Shown piece by piece: positions 9,897-16,883 of a stretch of 17,245 nt of DNA. This DNA is from Octopus sinensis. Taxonomy: Eukaryota. Below the pieces are notes generated by a model. That model had not been told where the DNA came from. It was given only the letters and a program-made list of their open reading frames with translations, and ran no database searches. The position numbers and the translations under genes are program-made. The DNA lies in contig NW_021824828.1 of the NCBI RefSeq assembly GCF_006345805.1, positions 1 through 17,245 on the forward strand, given 5' to 3'. Every line of letters begins with the position of its first letter. Position 1 is the first letter of the stretch.

Positions 9897-10217
9897 AAGG
9901 CGGCGTGATGGCAAAGTCGTTAGCGAGTCGGGCAAAATGCTTAGAGACTTTCCTTCCGGCTTTATCTTCTGAGTTCAAACTCCGCCGAGGCCGATCTTGC
10001 CTTTCATTCTCTCGGGGATCGATGAAATAAGCACCAGTCAAGCACTAGGGTCGATATAGTCGACAAGATCCCTCCTCAAAAAATTTCAGGCCTTGTGCCT
10101 ATAGTAGCGGCGGCTGTCTGTCGTAGGCCGGCGCTGACTGTTCTGTTCAGACCACTTTTCTGAACAAAATGCCTTGGCTGGCGAGTAACACAGTTGGCTT
10201 GTCCCCACCCCCAACCA

Positions 10218-10630: not shown

Positions 10631-10867
10631 GGTAATATTTATTGTCTAGCAGACTTAATCTCATTCAGCTTCCTAGTCTACGGTACTCGGTCTCTCAACC
10701 GTAATAATACAGTTGCATTATATGCAGAGCAATTTTTGGATATATTTAAAAATACTAAAACATGCGTCTTCTACGCTCACGAATAACTCGTCTTCGTGTG
10801 GGACAGAAAGGAAGCGGTTGACTTTTTTTCTAACTGATAGATTCAAATAGTGACATACCGATATACC

Positions 10868-11093
10868 AAATTCTTTACTACCCACAAGGGGCTAAACACA
10901 GAGAGGAGAAACAAGGACAGACAAACGGATTAAGTCGATTATATCGACCCCAGTGCGTAACTGGTACTTATTTAATCGAACTCGAAAGGATGAAAGGCAA
11001 AGTTGACCTCGGCGGAATTTGAACTCAGAACGTAGCAGCAGACGGAATACCGCTAAGCATTTCGCCCGGCGTGCTATCGATTCTGCCAGCTCC
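10868..11093 (-). mobile_element. Family C tRNA-derived SINE
   Basis: Reverse complement closely matches 14142-14364. TSD CCGATATACC at 10858-10867 and 11094-11103, within a (GACATACC)n minisatellite. Confidence 0.9.
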
Positions 11094-11366
11094 CCGATAT
11101 ACCGACATACCGACATACCGCTTACTTGACACGTAGGAGAATCTAATAAAGAGAAGTTCAGTGTTGATAGTAATGGGGTCCTCATGACTATACTCCAGAG
11201 TTGTTTTCTTAGTGTCAGAGCCGAGTTATTATTATTAAAGTTATATACAGTTTTAAGACTGTTAAGCTGAAATCTACAGAAATACAATGTGGAGGGACTC
11301 TGCTCATTGACAATATGATGACAACTCCAGATAGAAGTGTAACGTGGTAGTAATTATTTGACTATG

Positions 11367-11407
11367 TTCCGCTGATGAAAACTAAGAAGATCGAAAAATA
11401 TCTGGAG
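11367..11407 (+). ncRNA. Minimal type I hammerhead ribozyme-like motif (Penelope-type)
   Basis: Stem I TTCCG (11367-11371) pairs with TGGAG (11403-11407) using two G-U pairs. CTGATGA at 11372-11378, weak stem II at 11379-11392, GAAA at 11393-11396, 4-nt stem III insert AATA, AUC cleavage triplet ending at 11402. Confidence 0.6.
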
Positions 11408-11803
11408 TTATCACCATACTACCAAAGGTCAGACCCACTCCCCGAATTTTTTTTTTTTTTTTAATTTGAAGTACTTCTAATTTCTTGGCCCATAAAATTT
11501 TAAACGTTAGCGGTGAATTTATCGCAAATTTTATTGAAAAATATTATGTATGAATCTATATGTGAGTGGGACCCAAACGAAGGTTTTTCTTTAAAGTATT
11601 TGCATTGTACCTAGTTTAAATATTTACATTCTAAGAAAAATCAGATTTATAAGACCCCAGCGTCTCCCAAAGCGCCCCCTTGACACCTGCTTCCCTTTTG
11701 TGAACTCACAAAATCTCTAATGGGACCCTACTATTCACGTTAAGAACTATTAGTCTCGATTGACCGGATGAAAGGCTCCGATTCAACATGGGTTTATTCA
11801 TAA

Positions 11804-13845: not shown

Positions 13846-14141
13846 GGAAACTAAAGAGGCGGATGCACTTTTTTAAGAGCTTGTGAATATATTTCCTAAG
13901 GAAGGGATCTTAATATATACATGATGTAGCCGTGTTATTCGTTTACAGAGTAGTAAGCTATCACATAACAAGAAAATATTTAAAGTGTTTCCTTTTCCTG
14001 TCTGGAATAGCCGTGTTACTGGATAAGGACATTAACTTACTTCTCAACAATTTATGAGTTAATAAACGCTTCAAATAATTTTGCTAGCTAAAGAATGACA
14101 TTTCCTACAACATATTTCAGTTAATACCGTTCTTGTTGTAA

Positions 14142-14688
14142 GCTGGCACAAACGTTAGCACGCCGGGCGAAATGCGTAGCCGTATTTCGTCTGTCGTTAC
14201 GTTCTGAGTTCAAATTCCGCCGAGGTTGACTTTGCCTTTCATCCTTTCGGGGTCGATGAATTAAGTACCAGTTACGCACTGGGTCGATATAATCGACTTA
14301 ATCCGTTTGTCTGTCCTTGTTTGTCTCCTCTGTATTTAGCCCCTTGTGGGTAGTAAAGAAATAGGTATTTCGTTTGCCGCTACGTTCTGAGTTCAATTTC
14401 CGCCGAGGTCGACGTTGCCTTTCATCCTTTCGGGGTCGTTTAAATAAGTACCAGTTACGCACTGGGTCGATATAATCGACTTAATCCGTTTGTCTGTCCT
14501 TGTTTGTCTCCTCTGTATTTCGCCTCTTGTGGGTAGTAAAGAAATAGGTATTTCGTTTGCCGCTACGTTCTGAGCTCAATTTCCGCCGAGGTCGACGTTG
14601 CCTTTCATCCTTTCGGGGTGGATTAGTTACGCACTGGGGTCGATATAATCGACTTAATCCGTTTGTTTGTCCTTGTTTGTTCCCTCTG
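14142..14688 (+). mobile_element. Family C SINE as a head-to-tail trimer, 183-bp period
   Basis: Unit start GTATTTCG at 14182, 14365 and 14548. Only the first unit has the A-box head. The third unit is internally deleted and truncated. Confidence 0.9.
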
Positions 14689-16757: not shown

Positions 16758-16883
16758 TGTAATATATACAACTAATGTTAGAATAATAGTAAGAATAAAT
16801 ATAGAGTGGTCATGAAAAAAAAGAAGTTGCTCTATGAATGGTGAGCTTGCGTATTGATCTCCTAATTGTCCTCGCTGGGTCAT
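16758..16883 (-). pseudogene. COX2: NUMT: N-terminal 42 codons of mitochondrial cytochrome c oxidase subunit II
   Basis: MTQRGQLGDQYASSPF(M)EQLLFFHDHS(M)FILTIILTLVVYIT matches the conserved COX2 N-terminus (W.QLG.QD..SP.ME.L.FFHDH). W>R and D>Y changes at conserved sites indicate decay. Truncated. Confidence 0.93.

What the first reader, a model, noticed from the sequence alone, without database searches (positions are those of the whole stretch)
11289..11443. Minimal hammerhead ribozyme inside a fold-back whose arm starts at the predicted cleavage site
Seen: an ordered type I hammerhead core (stem I TTCCG/TGGAG, CTGATGA, GAAA, very short stem III, ATC) at 11367-11407. Seen: the ~45 nt from the cleavage region (11399-11443) are present as an inverted copy at 11289-11333, with 18/20 identity in the inner part. 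A fainter third inverted copy (CTCCAGA...TTCTTAGT) lies at ~11185-11222. Known: minimal type I hammerheads with tiny stem III mark Penelope-like element pseudo-LTRs and retrozymes, often act as dimers, and PLE termini are often inverted. Inference: this is a relic of a ribozyme-bearing non-autonomous retroelement whose end is set by self-cleavage. The antisense arm would sequester stem I and could switch cleavage off.
Basis: partly seen in the sequence, partly recalled or inferred. Interest (0 to 1): 0.75.

Follow-up and report, generated by a model that had tools for sequence, protein, structure and literature searches.

The report
Dead retrozyme relic with inverted copy
This is a worn, likely inactive copy of an old non-coding jumping repeat that carries a hammerhead (self-cutting RNA) motif, with a second partial copy sitting backwards next to it as often happens in such insertions, so it is an ordinary member of a known class and likely not a regulated switch.

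Summary
The hammerhead core (11366-11408) and the inverted arm (18/20, 33/45) are real. They belong to an old dispersed family (82 strict pattern hits, 0 control). Its consensus is a canonical animal type I hammerhead: 6-bp stem I, 4-bp stem II, palindromic stem III. The unit is a non-coding monomer of about 320 or 390 nt whose end runs into its start, as in non-LTR retrozymes. No Penelope ORF was found in 97 loci. This copy is likely dead: 2 of 4 stem II pairs are broken, the palindrome is lost, and stem I is predicted not to form even without the arm. The arm is the start of a roughly 170-nt inverted partial monomer, and the 'third copy' is its continuation. Its start at the cut looks like chance: 1 of 14 upstream inverted copies and 1 of 80 core-unselected 5' ends lie within 5 nt of the cut, and 53 of 54 copies reaching it run through. 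A weak excess of ends 6-18 nt past the cut remains (9 versus 5.3 expected, p 0.07). The scan found similar retrozyme/Penelope relics before on other DNA. New member of a known kind; low interest.

The parts
11366..11408 (+). Decayed type I hammerhead: stem I 11366-11371/11403-11408, core CTGATGA 11372-11378, broken stem II 11379-11382/11389-11392, GAAA 11393-11396, non-palindromic stem III remnant 11396-11401, predicted cut after C11402
   Evidence: Sequence; pair check and fold; family covariance model 63 bits (the model includes this copy); profile without this copy 66 bits
11344..11484 (+). Forward partial monomer of subfamily A, about -58 to +80 relative to the cut; the T run at 11447-11462 lies in a T-rich part of the unit
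   Evidence: Profile hit 11344-11480, 74.9 bits; pairwise alignment to the computed monomer
11165..11333 (-).
   Evidence: Profile hit 11332-11197, E 4.7e-9; collinear in the multiple alignment to about 11165; three other runs carry 11-12 extra nt at 11206
11334..11343 (.). Head-to-head junction spacer of about 10 nt that matches neither copy clearly
   Evidence: Gap between the two profile hits
11345..11352 (+). Upstream strand of a predicted extension of stem I, complementary to 11416-11423; a family-wide complementarity without shown covariation
   Evidence: Duplex energies own -9.6, other copy -9.0, shuffled -6.9 kcal/mol; permutation fraction 0.14

Best explanation
The locus holds two truncated copies, joined head to head, of an old non-coding repeat with one type I hammerhead per 320-390-nt unit; it is likely a non-LTR retrozyme copied into the genome by Penelope-like (PLE) enzymes, and this copy is likely catalytically dead. 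Shown: the family, its unit length and wrap-around, the inverted geometry, and the broken stems of this copy. Inferred: the ancestral multimeric RNA cut itself as a dimer through the palindromic stem III and was likely circularised; a PLE reverse transcriptase copied it straight through the cut site; one insertion laid down a forward piece and an inverted 5'-truncated piece; both then decayed by CpG and C-to-T change. The inverted piece starts near the cut likely by chance, and the fold-back has likely no regulatory role.
For: Family: 82 hits vs 0 control; 28, 55 and 27 hits vs 0 for three motifs outside the core. Consensus build matches the canonical metazoan hammerhead of PMC4209133 (helix I 6 bp, helix II 4 bp, 1-2 bp helix III with palindromic loop). 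A computed CpG-restored consensus folds stems I and II at p 0.89-1.0, and its palindrome self-pairs at -4.6 kcal/mol against +1.0 for the window copy. Unit: downstream and upstream flanks align into one monomer. Of 23 loci with a same-strand second piece, 15 have a spacing of 300-410 nt, eight of them 312-342 (178 loci scanned); PMC7229834 gives 150-450 bp for animal retrozymes. No PLE RT/EN profile hit in 97 loci (417,671 bases) or in the window, while 10 of 12 GIY-YIG control loci hit. Upstream inverted copies in 14 of 97 loci with scattered starts from -184 to +62; PMC8557442 describes an adjacent inverted 5'-truncated copy as typical of PLE insertions. 53 of 54 core-unselected copies that reach the cut run through it. 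Decay: the three CpG sites show mostly TG/CA/TA; 10 of 52 unselected copies keep all 11 core bases; 3 of 51 in-register copies keep core, both stems and palindrome. Each arm is closer to the consensus (34/41, 31/41) than to the other (29/41).
Against: No covariation beyond shuffles (130 of 500 reach the observed pairing), so the fold rests on the consensus. Only dimers and partial tandems were seen, no long array, and 8 of 23 spacings fall outside 300-410 nt. The ORF profile comes from one PLE clade and scored another clade weakly, so an old ORF could be missed. 3 of 81 further loci had a PLE protein hit: one belongs to another PLE with its own hammerhead (read by eye), one is on the opposite strand, one (L230, about 1.3 kb upstream) is unresolved. 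Core bases are better kept than non-core bases (G/C 78% vs 65%, A/T 92% vs 77%), though the non-core set holds CpG and subfamily-variable sites and loop II is kept as well as the core adenines. No target-site duplication or PLE tail was identified. No cleavage, transcript or circle was shown.
Confidence: 0.72

Rival explanations
1. The copies are orphan pseudo-LTR ends of an extinct protein-coding PLE, and the short tandems are partial-tandem insertions of its tip, not a self-standing retrozyme unit.
For: Inversions and partial tandems are PLE traits (PMC8557442 passages, PMC11167929 part 1). Most copies are single and shorter than a unit. Spacings vary from 224 to 730. A 3'-splice-site-like stretch lies about 190-240 nt after the cut in both subfamilies (read by eye, untested). 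The preprint 10.64898/2026.07.22.740005 finds retrozymes related to pseudo-LTRs, so the two readings may be ends of one series.
Against: No ORF remnant in 97 loci. Independent loci give the same wrap-around sequence and 312-342-nt spacing, which random truncation of a 3-kb element would not give. The hammerhead is canonical, not the min-HHR typical of metazoan PLEs (PMC4209133).
Confidence: 0.18
2. Self-cleavage set the 5' end of the inverted copy: the RNA cut after C17 and the reverse transcriptase ran off that end.
For: The inverted copy starts 2-4 nt before the cut. Two other copies start there (L138 at about -3; L226 at -3). Nine of 31 ends in -100..+18 lie at +6..+18, and end calls drift downstream in calibration.
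Against: 1 of 14 upstream inverted copies and 1 of 80 unselected ends lie within 5 nt, 1.7 expected. Calibration shows that about half of true ends at the cut would be called within 5 nt. A junction pattern gave 4 hits vs 4 control (low sensitivity). The arm shares 4 bases 5' of the cut with the forward copy.
Confidence: 0.08
3. The locus is a working ribozyme whose antisense arm sequesters stem I and switches cleavage off.
For: All 11 core bases and 6 stem I pairs are present. In 11289-11443 the arm pairs at p about 1.0.
Against: Stem II has 2 of 4 pairs including a broken 10.1-11.1 pair, the palindrome is lost, and stem I has p of 0.003 or less without the arm. In the wider context the arm pairs at only 0.09-0.10. 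The arms differ at 12 of 45 sites with no sign of maintained pairing.
Confidence: 0.02

Closest known systems
Metazoan non-LTR retrozymes (Cervera and de la Pena 2020, PMC7229834; read parts 2-4 of 6 and passages, supplement not read)
   Same: Canonical type I hammerhead once per non-coding, low-GC unit of 150-450 bp; tandem copies; coexistence with autonomous PLEs (147 GIY-YIG matches in this genome). The mussel unit of 350-390 bp is close in size.
   Different: This family is old (copies about 65-77% alike), mostly single truncated copies and dimers, with no shown RNA or circle. Inverted upstream copies are common here; the word 'inverted' does not occur in that paper's main text.
Hammerheads in PLE pseudo-LTRs (Cervera and de la Pena 2014, PMC4209133; read parts 1-2 of 4, supplements not read)
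   Same: Type I, palindromic stem III, dimer mode proposed; dispersed single motifs and opposite-strand pairs 100-700 bp apart are described there.
   Different: The min-HHR has a long helix II (7-8 bp), a short helix I and little or no helix III; this consensus has 4-bp helix II and 6-bp helix I, and no ORF is linked.
Inverted 5'-truncated insertions of endonuclease-positive PLEs (Craig et al. 2021, PMC8557442, passages; Frangieh et al. 2024, PMC11167929, part 1 of 4)
   Same: An inverted 5'-truncated copy directly at the 5' end of the forward copy.
   Different: No RT/GIY-YIG ORF here; the 30-40-bp tail was not identified.
Animal retrozymes as PLE derivatives (Li, Clavereau, Pollet, bioRxiv 10.64898/2026.07.22.740005; part 1 of 5 and passages; supplements closed)
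   Same: Solo monomers dispersed along chromosomes; proposed origin from pseudo-LTRs.
   Different: Their sample is mainly vertebrate ('octopus' 0 times in the main text); by their rule (two consecutive intact motifs) this locus is not an active retrozyme.

Membership tests
Type I hammerhead ribozyme (this copy) | Core CUGANGA, GAAA, UH in order | tested here: met
   11372-11378, 11393-11396, 11401-11402
Type I hammerhead ribozyme (this copy) | Stem I paired | tested here: inconclusive
   6 of 6 pairs possible, three G-U, but predicted probability 0.003 or less
Type I hammerhead ribozyme (this copy) | Stem II with 10.1-11.1 pair | tested here: not met
   A-C, A-U, A-A, C-G
Type I hammerhead ribozyme (this copy) | Stem III or palindrome for dimer folding | tested here: not met
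   Six-mer not palindromic, self-duplex +1.0 kcal/mol
Type I hammerhead ribozyme (family consensus) | Core plus stems I, II and palindromic III | tested here: met
   73% of cells paired vs 27-44% when slid
Type I hammerhead ribozyme (family consensus) | Compensatory covariation | tested here: not met
   130-214 of 500 shuffles reach the observed values; expected for neutrally decayed copies of few masters
Type I hammerhead ribozyme (family consensus) | Self-cleavage after C17 | not testable with these tools
   Needs in vitro transcription
Non-LTR retrozyme | Non-coding unit of 150-450 bp with one canonical type I hammerhead | tested here: met
   About 320 nt (subfamily B) and about 390 nt (A); no ORF hit in 97 loci
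Non-LTR retrozyme | Tandem copies | tested here: met
   Family level only: dimers or partial tandems at 300-410 nt in 15 of 178 loci; no long array seen; none in this window
Non-LTR retrozyme | Low GC (<50%) | tested here: met
   Window 11001-11500 GC 0.39; model hit GC 0.34
Non-LTR retrozyme | Unit-length linear and circular RNA | not testable with these tools
   No RNA holder listed; this says nothing on expression
Non-LTR retrozyme | Target-site duplication when present | tested here: inconclusive
   Longest shared word at the inferred ends 6 nt; the ends are uncertain
Autonomous PLE pseudo-LTR | Linked RT and GIY-YIG ORF | tested here: not met
   0 of 97 loci and the window; 3 of 81 more loci hit, none shown to be this family's; profile from one clade
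Autonomous PLE pseudo-LTR | Adjacent inverted 5'-truncated copy | tested here: met
   14 of 97 loci including this one
Autonomous PLE pseudo-LTR | 30-40-bp tail at one end | not tested
   Copies too diverged to map 3' ends to the base
min-HHR of metazoan PLEs | Long helix II (7-8 bp), short helix I, no helix III | tested here: not met
   Consensus 4-bp helix II, 6-bp helix I against PMC4209133

The most novel reading that the evidence does not exclude
The hammerhead fold left a footprint in where copies begin: 5' ends pile up about 10 nt past the cut, at the foot of stem I, because a Penelope-type reverse transcriptase stalls there or meets the still-paired cleaved end. With the PLE-style inversions, this fossil family would be genomic evidence that PLE enzymes copied a folded, self-cleaved retrozyme RNA.
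Probability: 0.2. Interest if true: 0.45.

Novelty: new member of a known kind. Interest (0 to 1): 0.18.

Why it matters
Little for this copy. At family level it adds an old retrozyme-like lineage whose insertions show Penelope-type inversions, in line with the proposal that PLE enzymes mobilise animal retrozymes (PMC7229834 discussion; bioRxiv 10.64898/2026.07.22.740005). It also shows that an arm starting at a hammerhead cut site in one locus is no evidence of cleavage unless the family's ends cluster there. My searches found no paper on cephalopod retrozymes (2 papers hold both words, the one listed is PMC8557442); unread supplements of PMC4209133 and PMC7229834 may list such genomes.

Tried and rejected
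Rfam: no hammerhead at useful score. 'Third inverted copy' and 'core-deleted forward copy' at 11182-11209 (10 bits, E 0.71): both dropped once the stretch aligned as the continuation of the inverted monomer. Weak tblastn hit of a GIY-YIG end to 11347-11159 (E 0.30): chance. A subfamily with the window's broken stem II: only 2 hits including the window. A recurrent cut-site junction family: 4 hits vs 4 control. Covariation of stems and of the stem I extension: not above shuffles. Cross-copy wrap-around by blastn was swamped by common repeats (109 hits vs 161 control) and was replaced by profile and alignment tests. L093 (two motifs 2754 nt apart) and L049/L181 (PLE ORF between two family pieces) were checked as possible full elements: no ORF hit in the first; in the second the ORF has its own hammerhead. 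The first count of ends at +6..+18 (10 of 29, p 0.014) fell to 9 of 31, p 0.07, after rejoining seven split copies and calibrating; the window was chosen after seeing the data; two duplicate loci (L211, L238) were left out. Expression: no RNA holder listed, not used as evidence. A covariance-model search of the whole genome was not available, so copy numbers are lower bounds from patterns.

Full report
Observation. The sequence shows a type I hammerhead core in order at 11366-11408, with the predicted cut after C11402. The inverted arm at 11289-11333 matches 11399-11443 at 18 of the first 20 and 33 of 45 bases. Rfam does not recognise the motif: no hammerhead family in the whole-window scan, and only HH9 at 12.4 bits, E 4.6, locally. 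The locus is not an assembly artefact: contigs of four other public runs cover it, two in one piece.

Family. A DNA search gave three more places. A pattern with the core plus ten bases after the cut gave 82 hits, the window included, against 0 for the reversed control. Three motifs outside the core gave 28, 55 and 27 hits against 0. A profile built without the window copy scores it 66 bits. Copies are about 65-77% alike, so the family is old. The consensus has a 6-bp stem I with an outer 3-bp helix, a 4-bp stem II with a 6-nt loop, and a palindromic six-mer at stem III. That is the canonical metazoan hammerhead of PMC4209133 (read parts 1-2 of 4), not its min-HHR. A computed consensus with three CpG sites restored folds stems I and II at probability 0.89-1.0, and the palindrome self-pairs at -4.6 kcal/mol. 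Pairing is 73% against 27-44% when slid, but does not exceed column shuffles (130 of 500), so there is no covariation.

This copy is likely dead. Stem II reads A-C, A-U, A-A, C-G. The stem III six-mer is no longer palindromic (self-duplex +1.0). Stem I has pair probability of 0.003 or less in 11335-11445, without the arm. With the arm, the arm takes the 3' strand at about 1.0 in 11289-11443 but only 0.09-0.10 in 11160-11490. There is nothing left to switch off. Across the family 10 of 52 core-unselected copies keep all 11 core bases, and 3 of 51 in-register copies keep core, stems and palindrome. Against pure neutral decay, core bases are better kept than non-core ones (G/C 78% vs 65%, A/T 92% vs 77%). 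But the non-core set holds the CpG and subfamily-variable sites, the aligning profile came from core-bearing copies, and loop II is kept as well as the core adenines.

Unit. Sequence downstream of the cut runs into the sequence upstream of the next core, giving monomers of about 320 nt (subfamily B) and about 390 nt (subfamily A, the window's). Of 178 loci scanned, 23 have a same-strand second piece within 150-800 nt; 15 of these are spaced 300-410 nt, eight at 312-342. The other eight include copies split by later insertions and a near-identical local duplication. A profile from 40 PLE proteins found no RT or GIY-YIG remnant in 97 family loci (417,671 bases) or the window, and hit 10 of 12 GIY-YIG control loci. 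In 81 further loci three hit: L181 belongs to another PLE with its own hammerhead (read by eye), L188 is on the opposite strand, and L230 is unresolved. The profile covers one clade well, so an old ORF of another clade could be missed. This anatomy fits the non-LTR retrozymes of PMC7229834 (read parts 2-4 of 6): non-coding 150-450-bp units with canonical type I hammerheads.

The fold-back. The inverted copy is longer than reported: the profile follows it from 11332 to 11197 (E 4.7e-9) and the alignment to about 11165. The supposed third copy is its continuation. Each arm is closer to the consensus (34/41, 31/41) than to the other (29/41), as expected for two pieces laid down once and decaying apart. 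Upstream inverted copies occur in 14 of 97 loci (13 by profile, L138 by alignment). PMC8557442 (passages) describes an adjacent inverted 5'-truncated copy as typical of PLE insertions, and PMC4209133 notes opposite-strand hammerhead pairs.

Is the end set by cleavage? The 14 upstream inverted copies start between -184 and +62; only the window's lies within 5 nt of the cut. In 80 copies chosen by motifs downstream of the core, one 5' end lies within 5 nt (1.7 expected after calibration), and 53 of the 54 that reach the cut run through it. Calibration on real copies cut at known places shows that about half of true ends at the cut would be called within 5 nt. A junction pattern gave 4 hits against 4 control. 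Running through the cut suits a circular or multimeric template. One weak signal remains: 9 of 31 ends in -100..+18 fall at +6..+18, near the foot of stem I (5.3 expected, p 0.07 calibrated, 0.005 raw; window chosen after seeing the data).

Mechanism. Shown: family, unit, inversion, broken stems. Inferred from known retrozyme and PLE biology: the ancestral multimer cut itself as a dimer, was likely circularised, and was copied by a PLE reverse transcriptase/endonuclease (PLE-type GIY-YIG matches are present in the genome, 147), leaving forward and inverted truncated pieces that then decayed. Confidence 0.72. Rivals: orphan pseudo-LTR ends of an extinct coding PLE (0.18), cleavage-set end (0.08), working switch (0.02). 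No cleavage or RNA was shown.

Novelty. A new member of a known kind. The genome is full of such motifs: a generic core pattern has 7,413 hits against 624 control, many in head-to-head pairs. Searches for hammerhead+Penelope+octopus, cephalopod+retrozyme and truncation at the cleavage site listed no paper on this family; supplements were not read. Earlier notes of this scan report similar inverted relics and retrozyme arrays on other DNA; they are unchecked AI notes and were not used as support. Interest 0.18.

Noticed in passing
window 16761-16871 (-): Fragment matching Pfam COX2_TM (E 3.1e-8, residues 7-43 of the frame read with code 5): likely a short mitochondrial cox2 insertion in nuclear DNA.
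   Followed up: partly
window 11803 onward (+): Young repeat (97-99% identity at 40 scored places) with a sharp left end and a 116-bp tandem subunit; its start resembles non-autonomous Helitron ends (recalled, untested).
   Followed up: partly
window 10859-11096, 9901-10033 and 14141-14688: Very abundant repeat, in part as a 183-bp tandem; extreme depth in public runs.
   Followed up: no
G000:C1, e.g. 25253371-25253432, 29551505-29551565, 30258614-30258674: A different abundant hammerhead-like family occurs as head-to-head pairs whose cores start only 4-15 nt apart, a tight palindromic junction just 5' of the core.
   Followed up: no
L242:4750-7070 on the minus strand (G000:C2 about 99916800-99919150): Broken PLE with RT and GIY-YIG remnants, its own long-stem-II hammerhead and a 5' inversion, lying between two pieces of this family.
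   Followed up: partly
L071, L072, L065, L069 (3' of the GIY-YIG ORF): A young PLE family with long open frames (up to 781 aa in many copies) shows no canonical hammerhead pattern in the 1.5 kb after the ORF.
   Followed up: partly
family monomer, about +190 to +240 from the cut (e.g. L100, L107, L064): Both subfamilies keep a branch-point/pyrimidine/CAG-like stretch resembling a 3' splice site; read by eye.
   Followed up: no
L127, L130, L163: Copies in which much or all of the hammerhead core is deleted while the flanks on both sides remain, as from slippage across the hairpin.
   Followed up: partly
L002:1519-1579 (-) and window 11356-11416: These two copies share the same three stem II changes and other bases; no third copy has them.
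   Followed up: partly
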